Shown here one piece after another: positions 1-64,000 of a DNA stretch of 64,000 nucleotides. This DNA comes from Phoronis australis. Taxonomy: Eukaryota; Animalia; Phoronida. Position numbers and translations under genes: made by a program. The notes beneath the pieces were generated by a model. The model made no database searches. It saw only the letters and a program-made list of their open reading frames with translations, and had not been told where the DNA came from. The stretch's first letter is position 1. Every line of letters starts with the position of its first letter. The stretch covers positions 1,139 through 65,138 of the forward strand of contig NMRA01000713.1 of the NCBI GenBank assembly GCA_002633005.1. The letters run 5' to 3'.

Positions 1-767
1 ATCAGCGAAATTGAGATGCAGAAATTTGTAACTAATTCTTAGTTCTGGACAGTTCTCTACTGGGTTTTCAGCATGAGACTGAAGAAGCCAGACGAATTTC
101 GAGGTAATTCAGCAACTTTAAATTTTGAAACCAACAGACGTATGTAGAGAGTGGGAACAACGTGCTGTTGTGTGGTTCTTCATTCATTGTCATCAAAGTA
201 TTACAAGTTGAATGACTTGTGTAAAGTGAAAATTAATCCTTTTACCTAGCAGTAACAATTTACACTTAGTTTCCAAAATAAAATGGAAAGGGTCAAAATT
301 TCAAAAAAGTTTGATGCACAAAACCGTGACTAAATTATCCATTTTTTGACAAGAGAACAGTCACGTTTCAGTTTGGCAAACTCTCAATAAACATCTCGAC
401 CACTGCTGCTCCAAGCACTTCATAGAAATTGCAAAAATTTCTACTCAGTCCACTAAGAAATAAACATTTAGCAAAAATACTGTCTCATTAAAGTTAAACA
501 CTGATTAAGTTCTACAAAGTTATAGAATTGTGTGCGATAATTGTCTGAGTGACTAAACTACCAGATACTTTTGGCAAGAAGTATTCCGAGTTTGGCAAAG
601 TCCGACAGAATGTTGTCCGTTCTGAGAACCATACCTGCATGGTGTACGCAAACATGTCCACAACACTAAAGGGACATTCCATTATCTGCCTTGAGCAGCG
701 TTAAAAGACTCCATCAACAGGTGGCATGCAGACTTAAAACTTAAAAATGTGTGTGAACTCTACTAAC

Positions 768-20624: not shown

Positions 20625-20702
20625 TCTGGAAGTACCCGTCACATCACTGGAGTGCTGAAAAATATGACAATTTCATCATCAATGTATCTGGGCATTTCTC
20701 TT

Positions 20703-29649: not shown

Positions 29650-29765
29650 AGGATACCTATCGTCGTCAGGCTCCAAAGGTCGTCCGCCATCTTCTTTCGC
29701 GTGCAGCGCAGCCACGCGGGACTTAGCGTTCCAATTTGGAGTGCTCGTCTGCACGTTAGGTACTA
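29650..29765. promoter_or_regulatory. Candidate bidirectional promoter and first exons of PIK3C2A (-) and nucleobindin (+)
   Basis: Locally GC/CpG-rich, with YY1-type motif CCGCCATCTT at 29684-29693. Minus-strand donor AG|gtatcc at 29656 and plus-strand donor AG|gtacta at 29760. Both genes' first coding exons begin at splice acceptors (20654, 31173), so upstream exons are needed. Confidence 0.6.
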
Positions 29766-31195
29766 ACCTCTCGGGAGAAACATGCATGGAAGAACTGAGA
29801 CTAAAATTAATGCATTCACCGACTGTTCTTTTGAGACCACTTAAAAACTTGCAGATTTTACTGATGCACTTTTTTGTTTATTTTCAGAAGATATTTTCGA
29901 AATTAAATTGTATTCAGACTGAACAAAAAACAACTCAGGGATTGTTTATGCAATGTATCTATTTGTCCCAGGCACTAACCGACACCTATTAGGCCAAAGG
30001 AAAAACTCAGCAGACAAAGGCAACACGCTGGGTGTTTAACAGTTTCAGCCCATGCCTTGGCCTCCAAAATGTTGTCCACTTGTTTTTTGTTGCAAAATGA
30101 AGTACTGAGCTCAACATTTATGTTGAAATTTTTGGTTAAAGCATTTTGAATTTATTTGAAGAAAATTAAAATACTTGCATTGATTGAGAATGGTCGCCAT
30201 TAAAATAAACCATTGACTTTATTTCACAATATTGCATTGTTACATAAAACACAGCTTGACATAATCAAAAATAAAAGAAGAGACTGAGCAATAGAATGCA
30301 AATACAACTTGGGTATTTATTTTATAATATTTATTTATGACTGCAGAAGCCTGTTAAAGGTGAGAAAAAGTCAAACAATACGATATTGGGTAATTTATCA
30401 GAACAACTGTATCAAGGTTCAATGATCAACTTGCACCGACAAAGTCTCAAGGGTTACAGTTCTGTTTTGGCTGACAAGGTGTTAACAGAGAATGAAGAAA
30501 TACTGAAAAGAAAACGAATGACAGCAGTGATAAGTGGTGTTAAGAACAACAAGAGCAAAAAGTCAAATGAAGAAGACACAAATAGAAAATAAGTAAGGTC
30601 TATCTGGAATAAAACAATTGCGATTTGTTTTCCAGAACTGAAATTCTAAATGAATTTTAATCGATTTAAAAATGGATATAATACTAGTAAAACAGTTTGT
30701 GGTTGAAGTAGAATTGCTGTAAACCTCTTTCAACTATTTTCTTGGCCTTTTTCTGTGTGGTTTTCTGTTCTTTCAAAAGGCGGCAGCATATGACGACCAT
30801 TGGAGTCATTATAAAGTGGTTGCCGAAAAGCAATGCACAGATCAAACAACTCGGCATAAATAAAACTTTTGAATCAACTAATACTGTGGATTTGTGAGAG
30901 TCAAATCAAGTTCTATTCAGAGCATAACTTTGAAGTAGAATAATTGGGTGAGTACGACAACAAGCCAGTTTTATGCTTAGGCAGACGACCTTTGGGTTCC
31001 CGAGTATACTGCGTCTACAATTTACAATATGTTCGGTCGGATCTTATTCTTAATCTATAAAATAGTAAATACCATTAAATTGGCTTTAATGTACGGTAAA
31101 TCGTGACTTAAGCCTTGTTGCTAATAACTAATGAACCTGTTACAAAACTTTGACTTTCATACTCTATTTTAGCTGTAACTAGAAAGCCCGCAGTG

Positions 31196-34100
31196 ATGGT
31201 TTGTTACTGGCGTCTCATTACACTGTGCATGGCACTGCTTCCTGTGGTGTTGTCGGCACCAGTGAAGCCAAACGCAAAAGACGGTCCTGAAGAAAAGCGA
31301 GAGGTAACACATGCTCTGATGTGAATGTTGATCCCATGCAGGATCATCTTCCTGAATGCTATGACATCAGCAGTGAGAAGACGCCACATTCTAATCAAGC
31401 CTATATGCTGGAAAATTTTCTGCGAATTAAGCTTAACTCTAGATAAATTTTTATATTACTACACATACATTTCGAGTGTAAATAGAAACCTATGAGGCAG
31501 TTGGGATCTTTAAATCCATCTAGCCGTGTCAAATACTCTGGCAATCAACATTTTTTTTCGAATAGTCCCCGAAATTAAAACTAAGTTAAATGCCTTACGG
31601 CCAGTGTGCTCGAGATCAAATGAAAATGTACGGGAAGGTTATGTGGAGATCACCTGCCATTTCGAGAGGTGGCAACACAAACAGGGCAACTGTCTAGGCC
31701 TTCAGCAGATGAAGAAGATTTGTGGTGAACAATATTGACTGGAAAGATGTTGGTTCTCTACGAATCTGCAAAGACATATGTTGACATGGTTATGTTGAAT
31801 TTTCCACTAATGTACAGTAATTGCCAAATCGTCATTTTTCCATTTTTCATGTGGCGCACTGTTGATTATCATAAATTTTGTAAGCGATGTGAGTTTCAGG
31901 AAATGTTCTATGACAGCTAAACATTGCATGCACACCTGTGAAAGACTGAAGTGTCCTTACTTTTGTTGAGAAATTTAGCAAAATAGAATTTCAATTGTCA
32001 GCCAACTTTCGATTTCGATGAATGTCTTGTACCATGTCATGCCAAAAATAATCGGACAAAAGACAGTTGTACAGCCATTATGATGAGGAATTCTACTTGT
32101 GGTCAGCCATATTGGTGGGGGATACCAGGTCATTCACTTGTCTGGTTGTTTTTTGGCATGTACTCTATGTTGGGTAGGGGTAAATTACTCTTAATAACGG
32201 GCATCTAGCTGGTTTTCGAAATGTGGTACCCCAAAAGTGACCATTGCTATAAGTTTTGTTGTCGAGTCAAATACAAGTTGTTCGTAAAACTAATGTTGTA
32301 TGATGGTTGGACCTTAGGGTGAAGATGACCAAGCTACAAACTTGGAATATGATCGTTACCTCAGGGAGGTAGTCAGTATCTTGGAATCTGACCCGACGTT
32401 CAAAAAGAAGTTAGAGGAAGCTAATATTACAGATATAAAAGTAAGTCTTTTTTCTATTTTAAATGAAATCCTGTGCAACTTATGCTTCTTAACTTTATGA
32501 TGTTTAGACAAAGTTGGATCTTTGTAGTCGGCGTTGTCCATGCAATCCAGCAATGGCTTGAAATTTCACTGGTTTATTTGGAAAATCTTGGAATTCCAGT
32601 TTTAAGCCCCATGCAGTGCTAACTAGGTCAATGTGACGCCGTAAATGTCCAGCTGGAATATAACAATTTAGTATGGACACTGATTTTCCTCGATAACTGC
32701 ATTTTCAGAAACTGACTTCCTTTGCTAGATGGAATTTGCCAAGTTACGAAACAGAGAAAAGCAACATACTTTCATGTTTGCTAAGAGGGGTTTCCCTGTT
32801 TTTAATTTAAACGGAAAGTTTCTAAGTTAGTACCTGTGAGCCTTGCTATTAAATCAGTTAATGAGCTCCACTCTGTCCGTAGCGTTGTGTTTGAGTAGGA
32901 TCGCTAACTCCGCGTAAATAAGAATCAGAAACAAAGGTTCCACCTCTAAATATGAACCGCAAAGACGATTGCTATTGTTTTTCAAAAACAGAAAAACAAG
33001 GTTTGTAAGTGTAGTTGTGGTGGATGACTTGGTGTCTCAATTATGGAGTGTGACGTGTTAAACCTTGAACATCTGAAACATTTGGAAAAGTGTTATGAAA
33101 TTGACATTAACATAAAAATTTGAGGACGTCTAGCATCATGGTAATAGTGCACACGTATGGGTTTGTGGATATCTAGCTGCAAATTACTTGGTATAGAGAC
33201 AGTAACATCTCGCCCATTTCAGACAAAAATAATCGCTAAAATTGGCCTTTTTTTCCTTATTCAGTGAATGCTCAAAATTCCCGAGTCATTGTATGATGGT
33301 AGCTATGATATAGATCTTTAAAAAGCACTTGCTTTGGCTCTATTAATCAATCTATTATGAAAAAATGAAAACATAAATTTCACTTGTCGGCCATATTGGG
33401 TCTTGAGTTTGTGGAGCAGCTGTTTAGAAATGGAGCAGTGTGTGCATACACTCTCGAAGCCCTTTATGTTGGTTGAAGGACGCGATGTCAGTGGTGCATT
33501 GTTGATGTTTACAGAGCGGTAAGATTGCCCGTCACCTGGAATTGGTGCAGCATGGGTACAGGAGTCAGCTGGACGAAATAAAGAGGAAAGAGATTGACCG
33601 TTTAAAAAAATACCACAAGCAGCAAGTGGAACTTAATAATGGTAGGTAATAGTCAGCAGTTACGGTTGTTTAATGCTAGGGTTCTTTATGTGTCTTCACA
33701 GTTAGAAATGAAATTAATACCACAAGCTGCAAGTGGAACTTAATAATGGTAGGTACGGTTGTTTAATACTCGGGTTCTTTATGCGTCCTGATAGTTAGTA
33801 GTGAGATTAATACTGAGTGCTCTTTAGGTAGTGGGACTATTACCTTGGGACATTCCGTTTTCTGCAATTTTGCGAGAGTTGGATGCTTTGATTTAATTTT
33901 GCATCGGTCTCAGAAAATCAAGTTGTGTCGCAGATAGGAAGATTTTAGTACTTTTTATGTCTACGGAGGTCATAGGTGTTATTTTTGGCTTTTAGTAAAG
34001 TTTTTGCTTTTATTTTATCCTCCATGCTTTGAACTTGTTCATTTTTATCTGCTGATGTGGCACTTAATAGAACTTTGTGTATTTATCAAGTCAAGACACA

Positions 34101-37100
34101 AGTTTTCTGGTAATCTCAGTAACCTCCGATTGGTTGCAATTTATGACCACTGATTGGTTGTGTAAAGCCATTAAGTGACACCTGATTGGTTTATCGCGAA
34201 TTCCTTTAAGTAAGTATGGAGGACTTTACTTGAAAGCAGGTCAAATGAATGCATTACCTATTTTGAAGGCAGTTTTGGTCAGTTTACCATATCTCACTAG
34301 TTCCATGAAATTTATTTTTAAGTTTGTGAGTCGATTTCTGTAATTCGAAATTGATAAAAAGGACAATTTTGTCAATCTGAAGGTGTGAAACTATGGTCTG
34401 ATAACTACTCATTGGACGAGACTGTCTCCAATTTTCAGTCTCAGTATTGGTTCGTAACAATTAACAATTTGACTTGAGCAGTGATGCCAGGAACTGGTAA
34501 TAAAACTACAGTAGCCATTCAGACACACTGTGCTGGCATTGTGAAACGTGCTCACTGTGTCACCTTACTTCACTTCAGAAACCTGATTTTATTTTATTGA
34601 AATTCGTGAAAAATCGACTAAGAATAACTAAAGCATATCAAATTGACTAAAATTGTCTTCAAAGAGATCACATTTCCCTCTGTAGGTATTTGAATGTGTT
34701 AAAATGGGTATGAGTTTTATTGATAATGTTGAATTTATGGCCAAATATGCATTTTTGCGATATATTTTTTAAATATATTGCAGGCTGTCTGGTACACATG
34801 CACTCTGATAACCTGAAACCATTTTTTATTAATATATAAAAACCGAAGTGAGGGGCTAGAGGCCTGACTCAAGGGTCTCCCAGTGCGCCCCATTGGGACT
34901 TGGCTTCACGACCTTCCATAAGTGAAGTGGACACTTACCCTCTAGGCCACACTGCCTCTTCAGATATATTGTTAGATGGGATAGACTTCCGGAAGATATT
35001 ACCTTTGAGCGGATTTGTTTCATTGTGTTTTTGTGATTTGATTTAAAAATTGTCATTTTTTGTTATTGTCTGTCAGACATTTGCTGAAATTAAGACCATT
35101 GACTTTACCAGTTGAGTACGCTTAAACCACCCTGCTATAGATCAAGTGGTTCCAACTTCGCCAGCAGAGCGTTAGACTGCAACTGCGCCTATTACAGATT
35201 TGATTTCGCACTGAGACCGATCTCAGAAAGTGACTCTTTGCCGATTATGTCCCTTTTGAGGATGCTATAAACACGACTTCTCTCGATAACTATAACTTTG
35301 CTTTTAGACAATTTTTCCTTAGAAAATTTCCCTAAGGTAATTCTTACTCAGGTGTGATCTGACCTCTGTCTTTGAAAAGAACTATGTAGTTGAATGTTAC
35401 TTGAGACATAGCTCAGTTAGCGATGTCTGTCGTGGTCGGTCGTTTTGTGTGCCAAACCTAAGCTGAAGCAGCAATGAACTATTATTATCCAAGCTCTGAA
35501 ATCACTTCTCATAGGAGTAAAGAACATTGTCAAGCTAATGAGTTTAGTTTTATAATATTGTTGAGTTAGTCTAAAATAGAAAATTTATTTGATAGAATGT
35601 ATGTTTTATAGCTGTTTCAAAGTTATGATAAAAATCGACCCCGTTTTGTCTGACAAATGTCTTCGTTTTTAAGGACATTCTGATCCAAAATAGGCATTGA
35701 CGTGTTCTTGAGAAATGATATACGGACATAAAAATAACTGACTTGTTGTTTGAGAAGAGCTTTGATGAGATGGATTGACCCAGCATTTATACATACACCA
35801 TCATGGGTTATGTATTAGTTACTTCTTAAAATGTCTGTTCTTCTCAAGACTGGAAATCACTTTTGATCTAAGCAATAAACAATATTTCTGTTGTGACCGG
35901 TTTTATAAGACAAGGATTGTTTATGCGACATATGGTGGTTTAATAATTACAGCTTTACTTTTTGTATTGTTAGTACGGTAATTCCCAACTTATTTAGCAT
36001 AAGAATAATAGCCAAAATTGACATTTCTAATTTTTCAATTATGGTTGATTATGTTTTTGCAAATAATGGGAACCAGATGTTGTTTATGACATCTACACAC
36101 TGCACACAGAATAGAGTTTCACTTGTGGGCCATGTTGTGTTCTAGATATGTGAAGAATCAGGGTTGTAGTTGATACATTTTGAAAATTATCTTGTACTGT
36201 ACTAGGATTGCAGTAACCGTTGGATTTTTGATGAAGATGATTTAGTATATTAAGAATGGAAGACTTTCAAATAGCAACTTGGCGACTGGTCACATGTGCC
36301 TGGATACCAGAGGCATTTTATAACTTGTTTAAAACAAATTCCCTGTATTTACATACACTTGTTAAACTGTTCCCCTAGGCCAGCCGCTACGAAGACAAAG
36401 TAGCTTCTGGTTCAGCAGGGTGACGATACGAGTCCCAACCCCCATTGCCTCCTGAAAGTCTCCCATTTGAATATTAATGAAATGGTCAGTCACTAGTCTA
36501 ATGTTTTATCAATCAACCTAAAGTGTTTATTGAACACATCATGTTTTCATTTTCAAGCACTCTATCGAAACAAAAACCTTAGAAAAGCGCTCAAAGGTAT
36601 CAGTCATCTGTGTTGAACAAGTGTGTGGCGTGTATGCACAGTATTTCTAAATTCCACTGTTTGCTTTTCACTGTCTTGCTGCCTTTCAAACTAAGAGTTT
36701 CCACTGCAGGTAACAGTTGTTCACACCTTAAAGCCTAACGGAATTTTGTTATTTTAGATGTATTGGGCTAACCAGATAGTCCTAGCAAAGCCTTAGTAAA
36801 ATAAGAAAACGAGAGTTCAATCACGCAAATGTAAGCCGGTCAAATGATAAGTGGAGCTGCCTTTTCGTGCCATGTTGCGTCACCGCGAGATCTCAGCACA
36901 AACAACAAAAGGTTGTATTGAATAGGGGACTGAATAGAACACCATTGCGTGCTGGTGTTATTTGCAGCTGTTTGAATTAAAAGGTGATTCTCGCGGTGAC
37001 AACAAAAGCAAGCCAATACGCCTAACAGTTCCTTACATTTGACAATTTATAGCACTAGTGGGCTCAGAGGGATGCTCTTAAGATTCTGTAGTAACCAAAT

Positions 37101-40100
37101 TTTCAGATGTTACCATTGGAGATAGGCTTAAAGTCTCAATGCAGTCTCATGGTGTATTTATTTTATTGAGGTCGAGTATTTTGGAGATCGTCATTAGCCT
37201 ATTTGAAAGCTATTGGTGAAAAAGTGACGGGTTTATGGGGAAAGGGTTTAATTGTTTGCTGGTTGTGTCGGTATCACTATGTGCAGCACATTTCTCGTGA
37301 GTGCTAATCCACGTTTCAGTTTTAGACATTTAACTCTTAACAGACGAGTGCATACTTTCTCTTCTTGGCTTACTAAATACTGTCTAATTTCTTAGTAACT
37401 TTTTAGTAGTTGTTTATTGAAACAATTTGGTGCAGAGTTCGTTGTTTGATAATTTTTTTCTGCATTTCTCATATTGTTTATTATAAATAGGTAAATAAAA
37501 CAACATTAGAATGGATCACCTGAAATTTTCGGATATAATAACGTCCTTTGTCAACAGAAACAGATATAACGTAAAATCAAACACTATATGACAATTGACA
37601 TTTAAGATGTGGAGTAATATTGTTTAAAATTACTCCTTGAGTGCCAATCGCATCTGTGCAGTAGGTCCCCGAGCGACATCGTTAAAAGAAAAACAAAAAA
37701 TTGCAAACCTGTCCGTATGATCCTACGGTTTTGCTATGTTTATTTTCATACAAATTATTTTGATGTAAGTCTAATAAAATAACAGGAGTTTTGTGTTTGT
37801 GGTTGCATTATTTTGGTTATGGTCTTGCCTTAAGAGAATCTGATTCATCCCGAGATTAAAGTTTCCAGCGCCACAATTTTCACTGACAGTTCTTGAGTAT
37901 ACTGCTGAAAACCACCTCAAAAGATTGCATTTTCCACTTCACGCCCTTTATGGACCAGTTTATCTGTTCTAGTTGAAAATCTGAAAATTCCGGAGCACAT
38001 CGATCATCGAAACTCTGAGACGTTCGAAGAAGAAGATTTAAGAAAGTTAATCCTCAAGGTATTGTGTTAGAAGTTGAGAGTTACGCAGACATGGTGTCTG
38101 TGTGCCAGGAAAGTCATTGTTAATGTTCTGTGTTGATATGTCAAAGCCTGTATACTCAAAGATTTTTCATTTTTCATCCCAAAAATTAAAGTTTTACCTC
38201 GCAGAAATTTTCGTCGGCTGCCATATTGATTTGCCGTCTTCATCAGTGATCACTAGGTGGCGGCAGCACATGGCAGACGACAAAAATTTATGTGAGGTAA
38301 AACTTTGATTTTTGGGAGGAAAAGTGAAAAAAAATTTGGGAGGAAAAATGAAAAAAAAAAAGTTAGTATACCGAATATGTACCTTCCTGGTGAAGCTGTT
38401 TACTGACTGTCAAACTGGGTTTAAGTTTTATCTGGTGTCAGTGGCAGTTGTGTTGTTTGAGGGGAGCCTGTAGTTGTCCCTTCTCAGCAAACCAGTGGTG
38501 AGAGGAGTCGATTCTATAACTGTTCTTCTATTTGTTTATTAATTTAAAGCCGGCTACACCTGCGACTGTTTAGTTATGATGAAAATAGCATGAAGTAGGT
38601 CGTTTATGAAGTTTGGTAGGCACTTTGGCTAAGTTTAAAAACGTACGAGAAAAGCACACGGGTACGCACGCTTATTACATTGAAGTTGGTATGTGTCAGC
38701 AAATGGGATACTACCATCAGACGTGGTATGTCACCGAGTGTGTTGTTATTGTTGTTGCCTAGGCAACGGCTGACCTGGATGCCGTGGATACCAAGAGGAA
38801 GGAAGAGTTCAAAGAGTACGAGATGGAGAAGGAACACGAGAGGCGAGAGAAGCTGAAGGCCATGAATGAAGAGCAGCGCAAGGCAGAGGAGAAGCGAATG
38901 GAAGAGTTGAAGAAGAAACACGCTGATCACCCCAAAATAAATCATCCGGTAGGTAGCGGCTAACTCTTGGACCGTCACATAGATGGCGTCCTTGGCATCC
39001 AACTGGACACTGTGGGTCAAATTTAGAAATCCTGGCTAGGACGCCCTGCTCAGTATTTGAACACCCAAGTAAAGAATTAAGAAAGTCCGTTACTTGCTAA
39101 CAACTTTGGGAGCTCATTGGTGTGTTCAGAATAACAAAGTTGGTTAAGATTATGATATCAGACGCGACAAACTTAATTACCGACCCATGACTCCACCGTA
39201 ATGCTGTGTCACAGCAATTTGACTTAGTGCCATAACAATACACTGGATGGCCTATGAGAGCCTCCAAAACTAGGCATTGGAGGATGTGGTATGGCATACT
39301 ATAAGGAATGACCAGCTTATGTGAAAAGACTAGATATGAGGTATTTTACATCATCAGCTCACAAACCATCGGTGCATATTTGACAGAAGCTATTATCATT
39401 ATTTTGTGATTTCAGTTTCCAGCGTCATGTGATGGCGCGTTCCCATTAAATTGGTATTGCTCGACACAGGTAATGGTATGCAGGTTACAGTGTAGCTCAA
39501 TACAGTTCAGTACAGTACAGTTCAGTACTGAAACAGTACCAATATAGTAAGGTATTGTGCAGTACAGTGGAGGGGAGCAGAGTATGTTACTTTATAAGCC
39601 GTGTTGTAACACGAGTTTGCAATTTCAGGGCAGTAAAGATCAACTGAATGAGGTATGGGAAGAGGGTGACGGCATGAAAGGCGAGGAATTTGATCCGAAA
39701 ACATTCTTCAATATGCACGGTATAGTCAGCTCTTTTGAAAAAATGATAATTTGTCGCCTCGTGTGGCACCACTCATTTGTAATTAATTACTAGTAACAGA
39801 AGTTTGCATTCATAATGTATGTGAATTTTAAACCCATTAGGGCGCGGCACTCGTCAACACCTGTCTGGCATCTCATGCTGGTATCACCAAAACTCCTTGA
39901 TGGATGGAACAGGTAGAGCGAATTCTTGAATGGCCTCAACTGTCGCTGTATTAGTTTCTTCATTAACTAAATGAGTTCTTAGACCGATTTTTGTGAAGTT
40001 TGGCAAACAGTTATCCATAATTGAGGCAATGACAGATGTCCATTTTCAAATCGATTTTATGTAATCTGCACTGTCTGTTTCTTGGTGCCCGCCTCTCTAT

Positions 40101-43100
40101 CCACTAAACTGCTCAAGGAATCATTGTAAAGTTTCACAGATGTCTTGTTTTTGAGATGAGCAAGGCTGCCGTTGATTTTCAGAAAACTGATATGGCTCCC
40201 CCTGGTGGCAATTTAGATTTTCTTTGACCTGTGTATTCCTTTATATCTAACAAATGCCTTGATGGATTTTCATGAAAATTGACATTAGATTTCTGTTAAG
40301 GAGATATCGGCACATTCCCATTGTCAGATGGATTCAAAGTATCCTACGCCCTCTAGTGGTTATTATTATTTTTCCATATTTTGGCATCCACTAAAAGATA
40401 AGACGTGTTCCTTCTGAGATGATCACGACTGGCGTAGATTTTTGGATGGGCTCAAGTACTGCAACACCCCCTTGTGGCAAATTTGTTTTTGCCTGTGCCT
40501 CAATATCTAACAATTTCATTATGTGCTCCAGTTGAAGAGAGTACGTTGATTTTGAGATGAGTCTGCTGTGGCTTGCCTTAGTGACAATTCAAGTTTTCCT
40601 CTTGTATATCTACAAAGTTCCTAGATGAATGTTCATTGATGTCAGACAAGTTTCTGTCAATACGACAACAGCACTTGTCTTTTTTCAGATGAATTTGACT
40701 TATGCTGTACCTCCTAGTGACCTTGTTATTCTATGTATTGCATCATGCTAATAAACATCCCGCATTTGGAAGCATAATTGATTGCACTTGTCGTAGAGTC
40801 GTGCGCACATTTCACTGCTTTGTTCTCTTTGCTTTTGGCCTTACTCTAATCACATCTCATTTCAAGTGATTACTAGGTTAACAATAATGATGCCAGTCTT
40901 GAATTTAGTCACTTGTAAGCTGTTTCACCTGGTCGTCGTGTCAAAACAAATCGTTGATTTCAAGATGTTGTTGCGTTCTGCTGCATATGTGGCAAAAATG
41001 CCGATTCTCATAATGGTGATTTGGTTTCAGATACCAACGGTGACGGTGCCTGGGATCCTATAGAATTGGAGGCTCTGTTTGAAAGGGAGGTATATCAACA
41101 ATGAATTGCATTAGTCTACTGGAAGAATTATGTCAAGAACAAATTAATGTTTCATGATCTGTGGGAGTGTTGGGTATTCAGTCTCTCTGAACATCATTTT
41201 TATTCCATTACCAGATGATTACTTGCGGATGTCCTCGTCAAAGGGCTGCACATTGCAAAGAGAGTGCGCAAGATTTGTTCTCTTGAGCTGTATACGCATA
41301 CTTAAGTAGTTCAGTAATTAAGTTTGTGTACTCTGCTTCCTGGTTCGTCGCAAAAATCTAATTATATAACCTAGTTGATTTAATATAAGAGACAACACCA
41401 CATTCCAGCTTGAAAAGTCCTTTGACGAGAAAAAACCCGAAGAGGACGATCCTGTTGAGAAGGAGGAGAATCGTCAGCGCATGCGGGAGCACGTGCTGAA
41501 GGAGATCGACACGAACAAGGACCACATGGTGTCACTGGAGGAGTTTTTGAAGAGTGCGAATAACGAGGACTTTGACAACAAGGAAGAGTGGAAGGTATGG
41601 CTAGTGGTGACCTTGAAATGGTTCCTCTTATAGCCACATGTAAAGCATGGCGCAAGTTCTCTGATCTTAAACAACGGTTTTCCTGTATCTTTAAGTCGAA
41701 GAAGCAGTCAGAAATACACACGGTCTGTGGTATGATTGTGTAAAATTAGGAGTGATAGCTTCTTGTATTAGCAACCACTAAATTGTTCTGATTGTGGCTT
41801 TAAGCTTGACGTTTGCATGCTCAAAGTAACATGTCCGCATGTAAGGGTGATTGTTCGTTTCTGATAAGTCGCCGTTCAAAAAAAGACGGGCATATTTGCT
41901 TTGTTCTGCTTGTCAGTACCGAAGTATTGGTGCACATCCATGATTAAAGAATGCCTGTTACAAAATTACCAGGTCTGTTATCAGTCCTGGGAAAATTTGG
42001 GTACATGAGGTAGTTGCCAGCATTTCAATTGGCTTCGTAAGTGGTATTCAGACCGATTTCAGAGCATTGGTGAGAGATGCATTGGCAAAATGCATGATGG
42101 GTCTGTTTTGTGAAACCTCGTCTTTGTGCATAATACAGTCAGTTGTTATACGTTTTCTTGTAATATCTCCAGTCATGCTCACATATATGAAAGTAGCGAT
42201 AAATATTTTAAATTATTCAATACCGATAAGAAAATATCAATATGGAATCATATTCATTTGCTAATTTCTAACTATGTGCAGCTCTAGTCCTTTTCTAGAA
42301 AGATATATCCTGTGTTTTTAACCAGTCAGGTGATGTGACTATGTATATCCGGATTACCTACAGTATGCGTATTGTCTTATTTTAGTCCTTGTCCCTTGGA
42401 TATGAATCATCATAGTAACAAATTACGTTGTCATAGTCACTCCATTAGGGACTGTTAATTGTTTTAATTGCTGAGTTTTCATTGATGCAGTTTGAATGAT
42501 AATGTGAAGAGTATGACTGTCTTTTTTGAACATGGTCTAATGGAACAACGATAAACGTGTTACCGTGGAAGTTTGTTTGATACACCGCATTCACTCAGTC
42601 ACCATGTTACAAAGAGCATCCTATTAAATTTAAAAAATAAGGCATTCTGCGCTTAATAACAGCGCAAAACGTGCTTTTTTCACGTGCCTTCTTATATTTT
42701 CAACCTAAAGATAGGCTTGTTTTAAAATGACGACTGCGTGAATAAGGTTTATTGAAGCATGGTAAGACAGATGATGTCATAATCTATTCTACACTCAGGA
42801 TGTTGAGGATGAGGAGAAGTTCTTCACAGACGACGAGTTCGACGAGTTTGAAAAGGAGAACGGCTATGAGGACTTAGACGAGCACGGCCAAGTCGAAGGC
42901 GACGGCAATGTAAGTGGGTATGAGGATCTGGTTCATTAAAGCATCGGCTGTTTTCTTTCAGGATATAGAGGAGACAAATGAGATTTTTACTGACGAGGAG
43001 TTCGCAGCGTATGAGAAAATGTTAGCTGAACAGGAGTCTAAACACAAAGAGTTTCTCGATGGCCACGCCCAGCCAGGAGAGGTCAACGTAAGTCCGCGTG

Positions 43101-46100
43101 TCTGCTGGTCTATAGTGTTTCCCTCTGTTGTTTCCTGGAGTACTCCTGTCCTGGGTCTGACTCTGTTTACGGACATGTTTCGTTGTTCTCGTACTGCTGT
43201 TTGTGTTGTGTGACAAGGTTTTGTACGTTGTCTTTTGTAGTGTGGAAAGCCGTGACGATTTTGTAAAAGCATTAATTTACTAGGGAGATTCTGAGAAGCT
43301 ACTGCAAAACTTTCCAAGTCACACAGTTACTTGACATGTGGAGGCTAGGATTGGATGCATTGTGTAAATTTAAGACATTTTATTTATTTGAAAACATGAT
43401 ATTCGTGTTAAAAATATGCAAACTCACTTACTAGGGGACGAGTTCGAACATCCGGTAGTAAGTGAGTTTGCATATTTTTAACAAGACATCAGGAAAAGAT
43501 GATCAATCTATTTTGTCATAATATTTATGTTTGTTGTCAAAGAAATCACTCAGTGTAAGACACAAGATGTATCTCAACTTGATGTTGTCACAATTTTCAC
43601 TTAAAGTAGTGTGGTGTGGGTATGTGTTAACTGATGCAGATTTTGGATGAATGTCATGTTTTTGTCTCTTCCACAGTAAATTGAAACTCAGAAATGCTCT
43701 CTTTTCCCTGCTTTTCTTGCTCTCAGGTGGCGCTGGTGGTCCTCTCTGGTGTCATTAGTTTGTGGGTTGCTGTGCATTATCCCACAACTCATTTATGAAC
43801 GTATAAAGTCATAGTGTGCGATATGCAATCAGTTGCTCATAGGTCTTCCAAGAATAGTTTCTGGTCCCTGTGGCATTTTGTGTTACTTGCCAAGCATTGG
43901 TTTGTGACACGGAAATGTCGGAGTTCAATCTGTGCTGTCTAAGTAGCGTACACGAGTTTTGCTAACTGAAATTTGAAACGAATTGCTTCTTGTTCATCCA
44001 AGGCTAAACCTTTTAATTTCAGACTTCTTTGTGTTTTGACTGTATAACAGACTAATATGGGACCACAACAATTCCTGAATTTTTGACATAATCATTATTT
44101 TTGTGAAAGAATGGGATTCTGTTTCCATAATTAAAAAATGAACTATTTGGTCTGAAGGTGTTGCTTGAAATTAGGAAATCCAGTGGTCATTTGTTGAAGA
44201 AAATTGACCCTCTCTCAATCCAAAAATTGACACCGCTATTTAAAATAAAGAATTCTTGTTCGGTATGTAATTGGTTTAACGATATTAAGTTTAATTTGTT
44301 CGTTGTCTAGCTGTGCTTTGCTTCATTATTATAATTTCCTGTTGCAATGGTCTTTTTGGTGTTAAATAATTATGAGTTTAGTTCAGACCAGCAGACGGTT
44401 CTTACAAGGATCTCTCCTCAATCTTACACCATGGCCTATCACTGATGTAAACTGAAATACCTAACACGAGATTCTCTTACTCGAGTTGTGCTTGTGTTAA
44501 AAACACTGTCCTCTTCTTTCTGTACCGCTCTGACTTGTTGTAAAGTTAACAATAACTCCTCATGGTAAAAACTCCTAAAATTCCAAACGGGTGTTAGAGT
44601 CGTTGAATTCCTAAAAATATGTTGTCATTACTTTTTGATTTCCATCATGACATGAGAACATTTGGTCATCAGGTAAATTTCTGATTTGTTGTGCCTAAAG
44701 GTGGGTACTTCGCTTTCATGGAAAGTTTTTCTCAGGCTTTAAAAATTGAACACTATAAGAGAAAATTGATTTAATTTGTTTTACAATACATGTTTCACCA
44801 TCCCAAATTGAAGAAATCGTCTTAAGTTGAGGAGTGTTTGCTGTTAGCATATGGCGTTTACAATATAATTATTGGATGTTGTCTCTAATGTCTTGATTTC
44901 GTAATTGCCTTGTGTGTTGTATTATTTACTTTCCCCTTTCAGATGTGCATACCTCTGTTACTATTAAGTCGTAGTGTGTCTCGATTTTGGGACCGAATAT
45001 CCATTCCTCTCAGAAAAAATATTTAAATCCGACTCACAAAATCGCCTTTAATGATTGAAAAATTCCCCTCCAGTTTAAAACACTTTTAACTCGCACAGTT
45101 CCAGTTGATCTGTTGGTGAAAGCAGGTGGGTATTTTCCCATCTTCCAAAAATATCCTTTTGGAAGGCACCTTTCCCCAGAGTTGAGTGATGGCCCTGTGA
45201 ATCAACTATTAAATTCTTAACATAGACTGTGTTAAATATTATGAATTATCGTGAAATCTCGTGACATTGCATCACAGGATTATAAATGAAATTTTCAATT
45301 CCCATTCATTCATTTTGAGAACCAGTTGATGCCTGTTATTCAGTGGAGAAAACTGGTTCTCAGATGTTTTGTCCTGTCCTGTGTGTGCAAATAGATGGGT
45401 ATTGATTTGGAGCCTGTTGTTTCCTACACTAAACCTCTCAGGCTCCTGTGTTGCAGGCATTAGGTCTTCAATGATTATGGAGTCGTCACAGTTGACCAGG
45501 CAGGTGCTCCAGCTTTTGTACATTATGTACCTGTGCCCTGAACTGGCATTGTGAATGTATCGATTTTATGTTGCAGGTTCCTCACCCCGGTGAACACCAA
45601 CAACCACCTGTAGTGTCAGATTCTCACCCCAACCAACAGGTAGTTTTTGTCTTGCCCAAAATATGCTGTTTGTCCATTAATCAAATGTTTTTATTCTTTT
45701 CACCTTGTATTTTTGAAAGTATCAGTTCATGTAAATATGTACGGGGCTGCCAAACACCAGTCTATGCTGAAAGTCTGTATTTTTCAGGTGAAAACAATTG
45801 TCAATATTTTCAGAAAGTTTCTCTTTCGATCAAAGGAGGGGGAGTATACACCCAAAAACTGCAAATCTTCAATTTCAAATCCTGTTCCAACTAAAAAGGC
45901 GACATTAAAAATCCAGGTTATCCGCTTAATTTCGTGCAGTAGACATTGTGGATTTCGCCACTCTGATCCATGGCCTTGCAAATCTTTGATTTCTCGTTTT
46001 AATTTTGTGATGGAAGCTGGTGTTGAAGGTTGGTGTGATGAATCGTGTGTATTTTTTGGAGTTTCTAACTATGAAATCAAATTTCTTGGAATATTGTCTC

Positions 46101-47247
46101 TCCAATTCTGCTCGTGACTGCTTGATATGATTTTCAAAGTTGACAATATCCCACGGTGCAAAGCCAAGTAAGCCCTTTTTTTCATTGGTCAGTCATTCAC
46201 AAACCAACTTGAATTGACCAATCATGAAAGGAAAAGCCGGTATCGAAATTACATCATAACTGGTACTCTTGAATTTAGGTTTCTGATTTGATCTTCGTGA
46301 TCTCGTGCATCAAAACCGTAGCGAAATTAACTATCTAAATCCGTAACATTTAAAACTCATTATATACTGACAGTCATTTTTTGTTAATAAATGAAAATAA
46401 TGTAGAAGTTGGCAGCACCGCAAGAAAAAATTTTGATGCCATTTCTTTTGAATAGGGGCATTCTCCCATTGACCCCAACGTGTTTGATCGAACAAGTTGA
46501 CCAGTTGACTGACATAGGCAGTATCTTACATGATTGACTAACTCCACTGTGGTATTTGTGGTTGGATGACCAGTTGTCTTATGTTTTTATAATTGATTTA
46601 ATCTCTGATAAAATCGTATTTAGCCCGGTTAAAAATTAAAAATAAGTTACAAATTACATAAACCGATGACATTCAGAATTTCTCGTCAAATGCTGATTGT
46701 GTTTAGTCTTTGAATTATCCCAATTGCCTTGTTTTCGGGTAAATCTTATTGAATGTTTGTTTATCGACTTCGCTAGGGGTGGAGCTTGCAATAGGTCTAT
46801 TGACCTGCATGTTGTCTCAAAGGACTACACTCGGCAGTTAACAAAGGAACCAGATATTACCAGTCAGAACCGGCATAGTCTGGTAAAGTCACTGAACAGG
46901 AGAAACCCATAATGCAAGCAGATTTTGTGGAAAGAAATCTTCACCTGCATATTCTCCCTCTTGAAACTAAACTGGCGATGCAAAGGTTCATAATCACTCT
47001 AGCACGTAGACCAAACATACGAAATGCGACTGTTTCCTGCTCAACTTTTTATAATACTGGTGTCATCTTTGCAACTCTTTAGCCTCAAGATCACGCGGGT
47101 CAAGCCCAAGGTCATGAGGGTCAAGCCCAAGGTCAGGAAGGTCAAGCCCAGCCTCACGTCCCCAATGAACCTCAGGGTCACCAACCAGAGCAGGCGACGC
47201 AAGGCCAGCAACAGGAACATAAGGAGGGAACATTGCCCAAGCAGTAG
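31196..47247 (+). CDS. NUCB2: Nucleobindin (NUCB1/NUCB2-like EF-hand Ca2+-binding secretory protein, nesfatin-1 precursor family), about 434-439 aa
   Basis: Exons: 31196-31303 (signal peptide MVCYWRLITLCMALLPVVLS), 32318-32440 (LEYDRYLREVVSILESDPTFKKKLEEANITDIK), 33515-33641 (SGKIARHLELV..LDEIKRKE), 37973-38058, 38763-38948 (..EMEKEHERREKL..HPKINHP), 39629-39719 (GSKDQLNEVWEEGDG..FDPKTFF), 41031-41089 (EF-hand DTNGDGAWDPIE), 41409-41594 (RMREHVLKEIDTNKDHMVSLEEFL), 42799-42909 and/or 42962-43087, 45577-45639, 47083-47247 (stop TAG). All GT-AG and in phase. Confidence 0.95.
33609..33813 (+). repeat. About 100-bp tandem duplication of a nucleobindin exon 3' end plus donor site
   Basis: aataccacaagc.gcaagtggaacttaataatggtaggta occurs at about 33609 and again at about 33716. 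Confidence 0.85.
38150..38371. mobile_element. MITE-like palindromic element in a nucleobindin intron
   Basis: cccaaaaattaaagttttacctc..tcgtcggctgccat pairs with atggcagacga..gaggtaaaactttgatttttggg; ends gtatact/agtatac. Confidence 0.65.
42799..42909 (+). CDS. NUCB2: Nucleobindin alternative exon A (DVEDEEKFFTDDEFDEFEKENGYEDLDEHGQVEGDGN)
   Basis: ctcag acceptor, gtaagt donor, 111 nt, phase 0-0; resembles the FFTEEEL segment of vertebrate NUCB. Confidence 0.8.
42962..43087 (+). CDS. NUCB2: Nucleobindin alternative exon B (DIEETNEIFTDEEFAAYEKMLAEQESKHKEFLDGHAQPGEVN)
   Basis: ttttctttcag acceptor, gtaagt donor, 126 nt, phase 0-0; paralogous to exon A. Confidence 0.85.
43406..43483. repeat. 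Perfect 28-bp inverted repeat with 22-nt loop
   Basis: tgttaaaaatatgcaaactcacttacta (43406-43433) / tagtaagtgagtttgcatatttttaaca (43456-43483). Confidence 0.9.
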
Positions 47248-48963: not shown

Positions 48964-50368
48964 AATTGCAATAAATACAGTAATGTTGACGAAGTAATTT
49001 GTTTATTTTTCTTCAAAAGAGTAAAGGCGAGGTGGAGGCTCAGAAGTTGACATGCCATCCAGGAATGATTCAAGTTCGTCTTACTATCATGGTGGCCGGG
49101 ATACATGGAGTGGGATGACTGAATTGACATGTATAAATTACCCTGGTACCATGACTGACAGAGTTGAATGGTCTCCAGGAAATAGAGGTGGAAAAATGCA
49201 TGAACAGATGTATGTATTACAAACTGGACTGCATTCCACACGGCAAAATTCTTGGCGAGGTCATGAAAAACCATACTAAGTTACACGAGTAAGCTCAACA
49301 CTTCACTCGCGTCAGTTACTGTAGTAGCAAAATGGCGGCCACTGAAGTGGTTGGTTGCCAAGCCCGTTATGTTGAGTTATTAATTGCCTTGTCCCATATA
49401 TTGAGATTAGCTAAAGTGCCTCGTGAGTGGCTTGCATATATGGAGCGGCCCCTATGGGAACATTGTTGTGATTGATAAAAATAACACCATCTGGTGCATG
49501 AAGTGAGAGTGAAACGAGGTACAAACGGAAAGCTTGTTCAATTATAATATTCACCATTACTGCATTAAAAGAAGGTAAGGGCTGTTCCAGCAAAATCTGT
49601 GTGGGAGGGGGGGGGAAGGCAACTGAAATAAAAATTTATGGGTGGTTGCGTTTGATTTAAATTCAAAATGGCTGGTGGTCGTACTTCAAAAAAATAAAAA
49701 TTTACAGGTCGTTGTTGTTTCATTGGGCCATAAATGTTTAATGGTGGGTAATTTTAGTNAATTGCAATAAATACAGTAATGTTGACAAAGTAATTTGTTT
49801 ATTTTTCTTCAAAAGAGTAAAGGCGAGGTGGAGGCTCAGAAGTTGACATGCCATCCAGGAATGATTCAAGTTCGTCTTACTGTCATGGTGGCCGGGACAC
49901 ATGGAGTGGGATGACTGAATTGACATGTATAAATTACCCTGGTACCATGACTGACAGAGTTGAATGGTCTCCAGGAAACAGAGGTGGAAAAATGCATGAA
50001 CAGATGTATGTATTACAAACTGGACTGCATTCCACACGGCAAAATTCTTGGCGAGGTCATGAAAAACCATACTAAGTTACACGAGTAAGCTCAACACTTC
50101 ACTCGCGTCAGTTACTGTAGCAAAATGGCGGCCACTGAAGTGGTTGGTTGCCAAGCCCGTTATGTTGCGTTATTAATTGCCTTGTCCCATATATTGAAAT
50201 TAGCTAAAGTGCCTCGTGAGTGGCTTGTATATATGGAGTGCCCCCTATGGGAACGTTGTGATTGATAAAAATAACACCATCTGGTGCGTGAAGTGAGAGT
50301 GAAACGAGGTACAAATGGAAAGCTTGTTCAATTATAATATTCACCATTACTGCATTAAAAGAAGGTAA
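48964..50368. repeat. About 0.6-kb duplication (48964-49578 / 49760-50368) around the N at 49759; probable allelic copies
   Basis: Near-identical copies; copy 1 is followed by 180 bp not present after copy 2. Confidence 0.85.
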
Positions 50369-60155: not shown

Positions 60156-60464
60156 NNNNNNNNNNNNNNNNNNNNNNNNNNNNNNNNNNNNNNNNNNNNN
60201 NNNNNNNNNNNNNNNNNNNNNNNNNNNNNNNNNNNNNNNNNNNNNNNNNNNNNNNNNNNNNNNNNNNNNNNNNNNNNNNNNNNNNNNNNNNNNNNNNNNN
60301 NNNNNNNNNNNNNNNNNNNNNNNNNNNNNNNNNNNNNNNNNNNNNNNNNNNNNNNNNNNNNNNNNNNNNNNNNNNNNNNNNNNNNNNNNNNNNNNNNNNN
60401 NNNNNNNNNNNNNNNNNNNNNNNNNNNNNNNNNNNNNNNNNNNNNNNNNNNNNNNNNNNNNNNN
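60156..60464. other. Assembly gap (N run)
   Basis: About 309 N. Confidence 0.99.
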
Positions 60465-61707: not shown

Positions 61708-64000
61708 ATTTGGAGTGCTCGTCTGCACGTTAGGTACTAACCTCTCGGGAGAAACATGCATGGAAGAACTGAGACTAAAATTAATGCATTCACCGACTGT
61801 TCTTTTGAGACCACTTAAAAACTTGCAGATTTTACTGATGCACTTTTTTGTTTATTTTCAGAAGATATTTTCGAAATTAAATTGTATTCAGACTGAACAA
61901 AAAACAACTCAGGGATTGTTTATGCAATGTATCTATTTGTCCCAGGCACTAACCGACACCTATTAGGCCAAAGGAAAAACTCAGCAGACAAAGGCAACAC
62001 GCTGGGTGTTTAACAGTTTCAGCCCATGCCTTGGCCTCCAAAATGTTGTCCACTTGTTTTTTGTTGCAAAATGAAGTACTGAGCTCAACATTTATGTTGA
62101 AATTTTTGGTTAAAGCATTTTGAATTTATTTGAAGAAAATTAAAATACTTGCATTGATTGAGAATGGTCGCCATTAAAATAAACCATTGACTTTATTTCA
62201 CAATATTGCATTGTTACATAAAACACAGCTTGACATAATCAAAAATAAAAGAAGAGACTGAGCAATAGAATGCAAATACAACTTGGGTATTTATTTTATA
62301 ATATTTATTTATGACTGCAGAAGCCTGTTAAAGGTGAGAAAAAGTCAAACAATACGATATTGGGTAATTTATCAGAACAACTGTATCAAGGTTCAATGAT
62401 CAACTTGCACCGACAAAGTCTCAAGGGTTACAGTTCTGTTTTGGCTGACAAGGTGTTAACAGAGAATGAAGAAATACTGAAAAGAAAACGAATGACAGCA
62501 GTGATAAGTGGTGTTAAGAACAACAAGAGCAAAAAGTCAAATGAAGAAGACACAAATAGAAAATAAGTAAGGTCTATCTGGAATAAAACAATTGCGATTT
62601 GTTTTCCAGAACTGAAATTCTAAATGAATTTTAATCGATTTAAAAATGGATATAATACTAGTAAAACAGTTTGTGGTTGAAGTAGAATTGCTGTAAACCT
62701 CTTTCAACTATTTTCTTGGCCTTTTTCTGTGTGGTTTTCTGTTCTTTCAAAAGGCGGCAGCATATGACGACCATTGGAGTCATTATAAAGTGGTTGCCGA
62801 AAAGCAATGCACAGATCAAACAACTCGGCATAAATAAAACTTTTGAATCAACTAATACTGTGGATTTGTGAGAGTCAAATCAAGTTCTATTCAGAGCATA
62901 ACTTTGAAGTAGAATAATTGGGTGAGTACGACAACAAGCCAGTTTTATGCTTAGGCAGACGACCTTTGGGTTCCCGAGTATACTGCGTCTACAATTTACA
63001 ATATGTTCGGTCGGATCTTATTCTTAATCTATAAAATAGTAAATACCATTAAATTGGCTTTAATGTACGGTAAATCGTGACTTAAGCCTTGTTGCTAATA
63101 ACTAATGAACCTGTTACAAAACTTTGACTTTCATACTCTATTTTAGCTGTAACTAGAAAGCCCGCAGTGATGGTTTGTTACTGGCGTCTCATTACACTGT
63201 GCATGGCACTGCTTCCTGTGGTGTTGTCGGCACCAGTGAAGCCAAACGCAAAAGACGGTCCTGAAGAAAAGCGAGAGGTAACACATGCTCTGATGTGAAT
63301 GTTGATCCCATGCAGGATCATCTTCCTGAATGCTATGACATCAGCAGTGAGAAGACGCCACATTCTAATCAAGCCTATATGCTGGAAAATTTTCTGCGAA
63401 TTAAGCTTAACTCTAGATAAATTTTTATATTACTACACATACATTTCGAGTGTAAATAGAAACCTATGAGGCAGTTGGGATCTTTAAATCCATCTAGCCG
63501 TGTCAAATACTCTGGCAATCAACATTTTTTTTCGAATAGTCCCCGAAATTAAAACTAAGTTAAATGCCTTACGGCCAGTGTGCTCGAGATCAAATGAAAA
63601 TGTACGGGAAGGTTATGTGGAGATCACCTGCCATTTCGAGAGGTGGCAACACAAACAGGGCAACTGTCTAGGCCTTCAGCAGATGAAGAAGATTTGTGGT
63701 GAACAATATTGACTGGAAAGATGTTGGTTCTCTACGAATCTGCAAAGACATATGTTGACATGGTTATGTTGAATTTTCCACTAATGTACAGTAATTGCCA
63801 AATCGTCATTTTTCCATTTTTCATGTGGCGCACTGTTGATTATCATAAATTTTGTAAGCGATGTGAGTTTCAGGAAATGTTCTATGACAGCTAAACATTG
63901 CATGCACACCTGTGAAAGACTGAAGTGTCCTTACTTTTGTTGAGAAATTTAGCAAAATAGAATTTCAATTGTCAGCCAACTTTCGATTTCGATGAATGTC
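61708..64000 (+). repeat. Direct copy of 29734-32026 (nucleobindin 5' region), extending beyond the window
   Basis: No differences spotted by eye over about 2.3 kb; the ORF track repeats at offset 31974. Confidence 0.92.
63170..63277 (+). CDS. NUCB2: Second copy of the nucleobindin signal-peptide exon
   Basis: Appears identical to 31196-31303 (offset 31974). Confidence 0.7.

What the first reader, a model, noticed from the sequence alone, without database searches (positions are those of the whole stretch)
42799..43087. Duplicated, probably mutually exclusive exon pair in nucleobindin, separated by only 52 nt
Seen: two phase 0-0 exons with canonical sites encode homologous starts (DVEDEEKFFTDDEFDEFEK vs DIEETNEIFTDEEFAAYEK), and the intron between them is 42910-42961 (52 nt). 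Both frames are open yet strongly diverged, so this is an old duplication rather than an assembly artefact. Known: vertebrate NUCB2 has one such segment (FFTEEEL) after EF-hand 2, and a too-short donor-to-branch-point distance is an established steric mechanism for mutually exclusive splicing. Inference: a switch between a highly acidic segment (A) and a helical/coiled-coil-like segment (B) right after the second EF-hand. I do not recall this being described for nucleobindins.
Basis: partly seen in the sequence, partly recalled or inferred. Interest (0 to 1): 0.8.

Follow-up and report, generated by a model that had tools for sequence, protein, structure and literature searches.

The report
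Nucleobindin gene with two swappable exons
An invertebrate nucleobindin (a secreted calcium-binding protein) gene carries two old tandem copies of one exon and its RNA uses one or the other, a layout also present in two likely annelid relatives, so one gene likely makes two proteins that differ just behind the calcium-binding hands; the splicing type is well known, but I found no description of it in this protein family.

Summary
Confirmed. Exons A (42799-42909) and B (42962-43087) are homologous, phase 0-0 and 52 nt apart, behind the EF-hand-2 exon of a nucleobindin gene. In three RNA-seq runs (one study, about a fifth of each read) the upstream exon joins A (116 reads) or B (15), and A (131) or B (24) joins the downstream exon. 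No A>B or skip-both junction reaches the 3-read listing limit, and the 52-nt intron has zero depth. Two other species, probably annelids, keep the pair with 55- and 91-nt introns and the same B ending, AQPGEV[NH]. Both exons are multiples of three, so decay cannot explain the exclusion. Steric blocking is the likeliest cause (best branch-point match 26 nt from A's donor) but is unproven: one annelid has a median intron of 57 nt. A is predicted as a short helix with an acidic tail, B as a 24-residue helix; that contrast is not conserved in the relatives. This is a new member of a known kind. The scan's index held no nucleobindin finding, and my paper searches found no such exon pair.

The parts
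42799..42909 (+). Exon A, major mutually exclusive copy (37 aa, 18 D/E, net -16); predicted helix residues 11-21, then an acidic tail
   Evidence: (junction reads 59/46/11 in, 66/58/7 out)
42910..42961 (+). 52-nt intervening intron; zero read depth; not seen spliced out between A and B; retention would give a stop after 9 codons
42932..42936 (+). Only yUnAy branch-point match in the 52-nt intron (TTCAT, A at 42935: 26 nt from A's donor, 26 nt from B's acceptor); predicted, not mapped
42962..43087 (+). Exon B, minor mutually exclusive copy (42 aa, net -10); predicted helix residues 11-34; ends in the conserved AQPGEV[NH] motif
   Evidence: (junction reads 9/4/2 in, 11/10/3 out)
43088..43237 (+). 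UG-rich tract behind B's donor (23 TG per 150 nt; 10-15 behind the 9 other donors scored); candidate splicing-regulatory element, untested
41409..41594 (+). Upstream constitutive exon carrying EF-hand 2; common donor for A and B
45577..45639 (+). Downstream constitutive exon; common acceptor for A and B; a G>A allele at its first base is seen in reads
31196..41089 (+). Seven upstream coding exons (31196-31303, 32318-32440, 33515-33641, 37973-38058, 38763-38948, 39629-39719, 41031-41089): hydrophobic leader, NUCB1_N, EF-hand 1. Only the 41089>41409 junction was checked in RNA
47083..47247 (+). Last coding exon (Q/H/G-rich tail and stop); from sequence only. Models with A or B are open frames of 434 and 439 aa

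Best explanation
This nucleobindin gene has two old tandem copies of the exon that follows EF-hand 2, its transcripts include one copy or the other (A in about 85-89% of junction reads, B in about 11-15%), and the two are likely kept apart because A's donor lies too close to B's predicted branch point for the intron between them to be cut out. Shown: duplication, frames, single-copy inclusion, no retention, and the same layout in two other species. Inferred: U1 at A's donor and U2 at a branch point 26-34 nt away cannot assemble together, so the upstream donor pairs with either acceptor and double inclusion is physically barred. Which copy is chosen is probably set by splicing regulators (the UG-rich tract behind B is a candidate) and possibly by cis variants. 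The likely outcome is two proteins that differ in the helix right behind the second calcium-binding hand, where vertebrate nucleobindins start their leucine zipper: a short helix with an acidic tail (A) or a longer helix ending in AQPGEV[NH] (B), which would tune self-association or partner binding of the C-terminal half. Mutual exclusion about 0.95; steric cause about 0.6; a real functional difference about 0.6.
For: Junction reads X2/X3/X4: 41594>A 59/46/11; 41594>B 9/4/2; A>45577 66/58/7; B>45577 11/10/3; A>B and skip-both not listed. Narrow lay: depth 0 over 42913-42951 in all three runs, no joints, and the listed loose ends before B (9 reads in X2, 4 in X3) all read the upstream exon. Independent inclusion would put A in front of about 87% of B-acceptor reads; binomial P about 1e-9 even if 6 unlisted A>B reads are allowed. 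Both exons are 3n with no stop, so decay cannot hide A+B. Every A in the intron that is 18 nt or more from the acceptor lies 34 nt or less from the donor, under the ~50-nt limit given in PMC5740500 and PMC7969005 (passages). L011 and L039 keep the pair with 91- and 55-nt introns while the intron before the pair is several times longer (about 470 and 230 nt); their yUnAy matches lie at 38/46 and 16/27 nt from the donor. AQPGEV is identical in all three species with 5, 4 and 2 of 6 codons differing synonymously in the three pairwise comparisons.
Against: The branch point is predicted only. Capitella teleta has a median intron of 57 bp and Dimorphilus 66 bp (10.1101/2020.05.07.078311, passages), and C. 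elegans splices introns down to about 40 nt (PMC4165533, passages), so a 52-nt intron may be spliceable if this animal has such machinery; its clade is unresolved. L011's intron is 91 nt and has a weaker candidate branch A at 58 nt. The tool lists junctions only from 3 reads, so up to 2 A>B reads per run could be hidden. The raw runs come from one study, tissues unknown, 18-19% of each read; no tissue switch was seen. The acidic character of the first copy and the UG tract (7 TG in L011) are not conserved in all three species. No function was tested.
Confidence: 0.6

Rival explanations
1. The exons are mutually exclusive, but the 52-nt intron is of spliceable size in this animal; exclusion is enforced by regulators or RNA structure (one exon repressed whenever the other is activated), and the short intron is incidental.
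For: Annelid introns of 57-66 bp are typical in two species. L011 has a 91-nt intron. UG-rich tracts follow B in the window (23 TG; 0.25% of gene windows reach this) and in L039 (24). In run X2, B-containing reads come mostly from one allele (10 of 11, against 31 of 66 for A; Fisher p 0.008), which suggests cis control.
Against: The other 10 modelled introns of this gene are 319-4331 nt, so the short one is an outlier, and it stays short in 3 of 3 species with the pair. The UG tract is absent in L011. The allele skew is not seen in X3 (p 0.73). Single MFE folds of the three regions showed me no shared docking pattern; this was inspection, not a test.
Confidence: 0.27
2. The splicing is real but the choice has little functional consequence: the exon lies at the start of a poorly conserved, low-complexity tail, and the minor copy persists as a nearly neutral by-product.
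For: Homologs diverge quickly after the first ~20 residues of this exon. Most genomic loci examined have one copy (18 of 20 with at least 250 nt behind the exon). B share is similar (8-30%) in three runs with no on/off switch.
Against: Both frames and all splice sites are intact despite saturated synonymous sites; the second copy's last residues are conserved at protein level across species whose upstream exon is only about 45% identical.
Confidence: 0.11
3. A and B are independent cassette exons or an assembly artefact (allelic copies placed side by side).
For: The window has duplications beside N gaps; A+B and skip-both forms would be in frame.
Against: No N lies near the pair; the copies are about 65% identical at best; both occur in RNA with their own SNPs; A+B and skip-both junctions are not listed; two other species share the layout.
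Confidence: 0.02

Closest known systems
Homologous (tandem-duplicated) mutually exclusive exons enforced by steric interference; 57 (9%) of 629 human clusters are potential cases (Hatje et al. 2017, PMC5740500, passages read)
   Same: Tandem homologous exons of like length and phase; one per transcript; donor-to-branch distance under 50 nt (predicted here).
   Different: [quoted passage not shown]
OGDH exons 4a/4b (Kralovicova et al. 2021, PMC7969005, passages read; author names recalled)
   Same: Mutually exclusive pair in a calcium-regulated protein, enforced by branch points 25-41 nt from the upstream donor; intron size restricted over long times.
   Different: OGDH uses distant branch points in a longer intron and the swapped exon holds the Ca2+ site itself; here the whole intron is short and the swapped segment follows constitutive EF-hands. 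Branch points are mapped there, not here.
C. elegans egl-15 5B/5A, let-2 9/10, bet-2, gly-5, gly-6 (PMC4165533, passages read)
   Same: Invertebrate 3n-length exclusive exons separated by an intron too short to excise.
   Different: Those introns are under 40 nt, below that species' minimum; 52 nt would be spliceable in C. elegans.
Vertebrate NUCB1/NUCB2 (PDB 1SNL; domain order from PMC10308643, passages read)
   Same: Leader, NUCB1_N region, two EF-hands, then a [FY]TEEE-type helix start.
   Different: A single post-EF-hand-2 segment (0 of 45 homologs scored had two such motifs) running into a long leucine zipper; here the segment is duplicated and shorter.

Membership tests
Nucleobindin (NUCB) | NUCB1-like N-terminal domain (PF25434) | tested here: met
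   53.4 and 45 bits on two exons, cut-off 27
Nucleobindin (NUCB) | EF-hand pair homologous to NUCB1 | tested here: met
   Exon 41409-41594 vs 1SNL E 3.9e-12; Pfam EF-hand hits on the single exon are below cut-off; 40-55% identity to named nucleobindins over 290-430 aa
Nucleobindin (NUCB) | N-terminal signal peptide | not tested
   Hydrophobic leader visible in the translation; no predictor run
Nucleobindin (NUCB) | Leucine zipper after EF-hand 2 (vertebrate form) | tested here: inconclusive
   B predicted as a 24-residue helix, A as 11; no long zipper; dimerisation not tested
Homologous mutually exclusive exons | Adjacent homologous exons with the same frame and valid splice sites | tested here: met
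Homologous mutually exclusive exons | Each exon joined singly to both flanking exons | tested here: met
   All four junctions in 3 of 3 raw runs (the smallest count is 2 reads)
Homologous mutually exclusive exons | No double inclusion, no double skipping | tested here: met
   Neither junction listed in 3 of 3 raw runs, limit 3 reads per run
Sterically enforced exclusive exons | Donor-to-branch-point distance under about 50 nt | tested here: inconclusive
   Met by sequence (26 nt; at most 34 nt); branch point not mapped
Sterically enforced exclusive exons | Distance below this species' own minimum | not testable with these tools
NMD-enforced exclusive exons | Double inclusion shifts the frame or adds a stop | tested here: not met
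   111 and 126 nt, both 3n and open
U2/U12-incompatible exclusive exons | One flanking site of U12 type | tested here: not met
   Donors GTATGG, GTAAGT, GTAAGT; none resembles the U12 donor consensus (consensus recalled)
RNA-structure (docking/selector) exclusive exons | Conserved competing intronic pairings | tested here: inconclusive
   Only single MFE folds of three species, inspected by eye; no covariation test possible

The most novel reading that the evidence does not exclude
Nucleobindins have repeatedly evolved exon-swap isoforms in invertebrates: a sterically locked pair behind EF-hand 2 in annelid-like animals and a separate swapped segment in the N-terminal half in echinoderms. The B copy, with its conserved AQPGEV[NH] ending, would be a regulated module that changes dimerisation or partner binding of the calcium-sensing half, its inclusion tuned by cis variants. 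Splicing would then do in invertebrates part of what the NUCB1/NUCB2 gene duplication did in vertebrates.
Probability: 0.25. Interest if true: 0.6.

Novelty: new member of a known kind. Interest (0 to 1): 0.42.

Why it matters
The segment behind EF-hand 2 of nucleobindins lies outside the solved NUCB1 fragment that my search matched (1SNL ends at EF-hand 2) and leads into the zipper and disordered tail, the latter of unknown function in vertebrates (PMC10308643). A natural, RNA-confirmed A/B swap at exactly this place, kept in several species, is a ready-made comparison for asking what the segment does. The 52/55/91-nt series of intervening introns is also a direct test of the steric limit in a non-model invertebrate. 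The splicing type itself is textbook, so a splicing specialist would not be surprised; the interest is in the family and in the recurrence.

Tried and rejected
No whole genome is held for this window, so intron-size statistics could not be made. The run search listed no indexed RNA holder; three raw RNA runs came in by species label and were laid. Word-indexed protein searches with the EF-hand-2 exon and with the three-species B alignment scored nothing; this is weak evidence. No close relative is among the proteins found (at most about 56% identity), so dN/dS could not be computed. Trees did not place the window's species. An exon-only tree could not decide between one ancient duplication and parallel duplications or gene conversion: the best tree joins window A with window B (60/79), but first-with-first and second-with-second are not rejected (p-AU 0.13 each). 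The idea that the 52-nt intron is itself a partial exon repeat was rejected (shuffle p 0.27). Intron retention as an alternative ending was rejected (zero depth). A search of the gene's introns for duplicates of the other exons found none, apart from a short copy of the end of exon 33515-33641. A Pfam scan of 63 of 294 minus-strand frames of the neighbouring PI3K gene found four exons and no short intron; uninformative. No complex prediction was run.

Full report
Observation. Their peptides align with score 60 against a shuffle mean of 27.8; 1 of 10,000 shuffles reached it, and the DNA similarity runs from acceptor to donor. Third codon positions match in 8 of the first 19 codons, so the duplication is old. 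The gene is a nucleobindin: PF25434 above cut-off on two exons and a match of the preceding exon to the NUCB1 EF-hand structure 1SNL. A hand-built model gives open frames of 434 aa with A and 439 aa with B; upstream of 41031 and downstream of 45639 the model rests on sequence alone.

RNA. Three stranded raw RNA-seq runs of the same species label (one study; 18-19% of each run read; tissues not given) and one older contig set were laid on 41000-45800. Junction reads, X2/X3/X4: 41594>42799 59/46/11; 41594>42962 9/4/2; 42909>45577 66/58/7; 43087>45577 11/10/3. The last two sums add reads that carry a G>A allele at 45577, which the tool lists as a separate joint. B's share is 15 of 131 upstream and 24 of 155 downstream junction reads. 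Neither 42909>42962 nor 41594>45577 is listed; the tool lists joints from 3 reads, so at most 2 per run can be hidden. A second lay on 42770-43130 (142, 109 and 26 reads) shows depth 0 across 42913-42951 in all three runs and no joints; the listed loose ends before B are the upstream exon. The contig set X1 holds the A form only. If inclusion were independent, about 87% of B-acceptor reads should come from A; P is about 1e-9 even allowing six hidden reads. Mutual exclusion is therefore shown for these samples. A tissue switch is not.

Relatives. A profile of the following segment found two true tandem copies in L011 and L039 (a second weak hit in L015 lies upstream and was discarded). Many of the 80 are spliced transcripts and cannot show a pair. 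Of 32 loci that I judged genomic, 22 showed the exon; 20 of those have at least 250 nt behind it, and 2 of these 20 have the pair (some loci are near-duplicates of each other). L011: exons 1337-1450 and 1542-1655, intron 91 nt. L039: exons 1177-1284 and 1340-1456, intron 55 nt. All are phase 0-0 with GTAAGT donors. The second copy ends in AQPGEV[NH] in all three species, with synonymous differences in 5, 4 and 2 of six codons pairwise, and a pattern for this ending plus donor matched only these 2 of 80 loci. In a short-alignment tree L011 and L039 group with the annelid Lamellibrachia (87/75) inside a 12-row clade (95/89) whose other genomic members show one copy; the window's sequence is a long branch and is unplaced. 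I infer that the window is likely an annelid or near relative from the shared layout, not from the tree. One origin versus parallel origins is unresolved. None of 45 homologous proteins scored has the motif twice, and the RefSeq isoform sets seen for a snail, a spider, a tick, a sea urchin and amphioxus do not differ at this exon.

Mechanism. Decay is excluded because both exons are 3n without stops, and no splice site looks U12-type (consensus recalled). The only yUnAy match in the intron has its A at 42935, 26 nt from A's donor; any usable A is within 34 nt. L039 has CTGAC matches at 16 and 27 nt; L011 has matches at 38 and 46 nt and a weaker candidate at 58. A limit of about 50 nt is used in PMC5740500 and PMC7969005 (passages). 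The other ten introns of the gene are 319-4331 nt. Against: Capitella's median intron is 57 bp (10.1101/2020.05.07.078311, passages) and C. elegans splices down to about 40 nt (PMC4165533, passages), so the limit is lineage-dependent and unknown here. I put steric blocking at about 0.6 and regulator- or structure-based exclusion at about 0.27. Exon choice may involve a UG-rich tract behind B (23 TG in 150 nt against 10-15 at nine other donors; 24 in L039 but 7 in L011). In X2, 10 of 11 B>downstream reads carry one allele against 31 of 66 for A (p 0.008), and two SNPs in B are read in 13 of 15 and 18 of 20 reads; X3 shows no skew (p 0.73), and the runs may be pools.

Protein consequence. Single-sequence AlphaFold2 models of the isolated peptides give a helix at 11-21 for A (pLDDT 69) and at 11-34 for B (pLDDT 80); such short models are weak evidence. 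Net charge is -16 for A and -10 for B, but -4/-7 in L011 and -2/-10 in L039, so the acidic first copy is particular to this species. In vertebrate NUCB2 the EF-hands are followed by a leucine zipper and a disordered tail of unknown function, and the C-terminal half dimerises (PMC10308643, passages). The swapped segment sits where fish homologs begin that long helix. A change in self-association or partner binding is my inference; nothing here tests it.

What is known. Tandem homologous mutually exclusive exons with a short donor-to-branch distance are an established class, so this is a new member. Searches for the family: 'nucleobindin'+'mutually exclusive exons' (5 papers), +'alternative splicing'+'isoform'+'invertebrate' (6), +'annelid' (7), 'NUCB2'+'splice variant'+'leucine zipper'+'EF-hand' (5), 'calnuc'+'alternative splicing' (8), 'NUCB1'+'mutually exclusive'+'exon' (6). 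I saw these as listings and read passages of 10.1101/129783, PMC2375403, PMC9177970 and 10.64898/2026.05.27.728189; none describes such a pair. NUCB is absent from the held supplements of PMC5740500 (10 files) and PMC9741552 (1 file of 15,271 characters, which may not hold the full gene list). The library lacks most subscription journals and bioRxiv supplements, and automated annotation of an annelid genome may already list these isoforms. The scan's own index returned nothing near, nothing by sequence, and no finding with the word nucleobindin; other notes on this genome concern other genes and were not used.

Verdict. Real, expressed, conserved in at least two other species, and apparently undescribed for nucleobindins, but of a familiar splicing type and with no tested function. 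Interest 0.42.

Noticed in passing
proteins P0181 vs P0089 (Diadema antillarum isoforms X1/X2) and P0146 vs P0169 (Holothuria cluster): Echinoderm nucleobindin isoforms swap a homologous ~35-residue segment at the position of window exon 37973-38058, which looks like a second, independent mutually exclusive pair in this family. Genomic layout not checked; the window has no duplicate of that exon.
   Followed up: partly
window 42962-43087 and 45577: Allele-skewed inclusion of B in run X2 (10 of 11 junction reads from one allele, p 0.008), not in X3; SNPs 43006 A>G (silent) and 43048 A>C (K>N).
   Followed up: partly
window 29734-32026 and 61708-64000: 100% identical 2,293-nt copy, including the first coding exon of the nucleobindin gene, after the N gap at 60156-60464; likely an assembly duplicate, possibly a very recent tandem copy.
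   Followed up: no
window 14394-18028 and 48964-50368: 95-97% identical repeats on either side of single N bases (16226, 49759); likely allelic overlaps joined by the assembler.
   Followed up: no
window 737-20672, minus strand: A PI3-kinase gene (PI3K_rbd, PI3K_C2, PI3Ka exons; a 477-codon frame at 19242-20672 may be its first exon), probably class II.
   Followed up: partly
window 43088-43210: Some reads run from B into the downstream intron (depth 4, 0, 2 in X2, X3, X4); the frame stays open for 41 fairly hydrophobic codons before a stop. Probably partly spliced RNA, but an alternative ending is not excluded.
   Followed up: partly
L039:1974-2044: A purine-rich, exon-like 71-nt stretch behind the second copy encodes an almost purely acidic peptide between AG and GTAAGT, but is not frame-preserving as drawn. 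Unexplained.
   Followed up: partly
window 33718-33750: Short intronic copy of the 3' end and donor of exon 33515-33641, about 110 nt downstream.
   Followed up: no
window 45311-45363 and 43403-43486: A ~50-nt fragment of an abundant repeat draws thousands of reads on both strands; a 36-bp inverted repeat with a 12-nt loop lies at 43403-43486. Both look like small mobile-element remnants.
   Followed up: no
window 42757-42761: A GCATG motif 38 nt before A's acceptor, directly followed by a donor-like GTAAGA; not present in L011 or L039. The Rbfox association of the motif is recalled.
   Followed up: no
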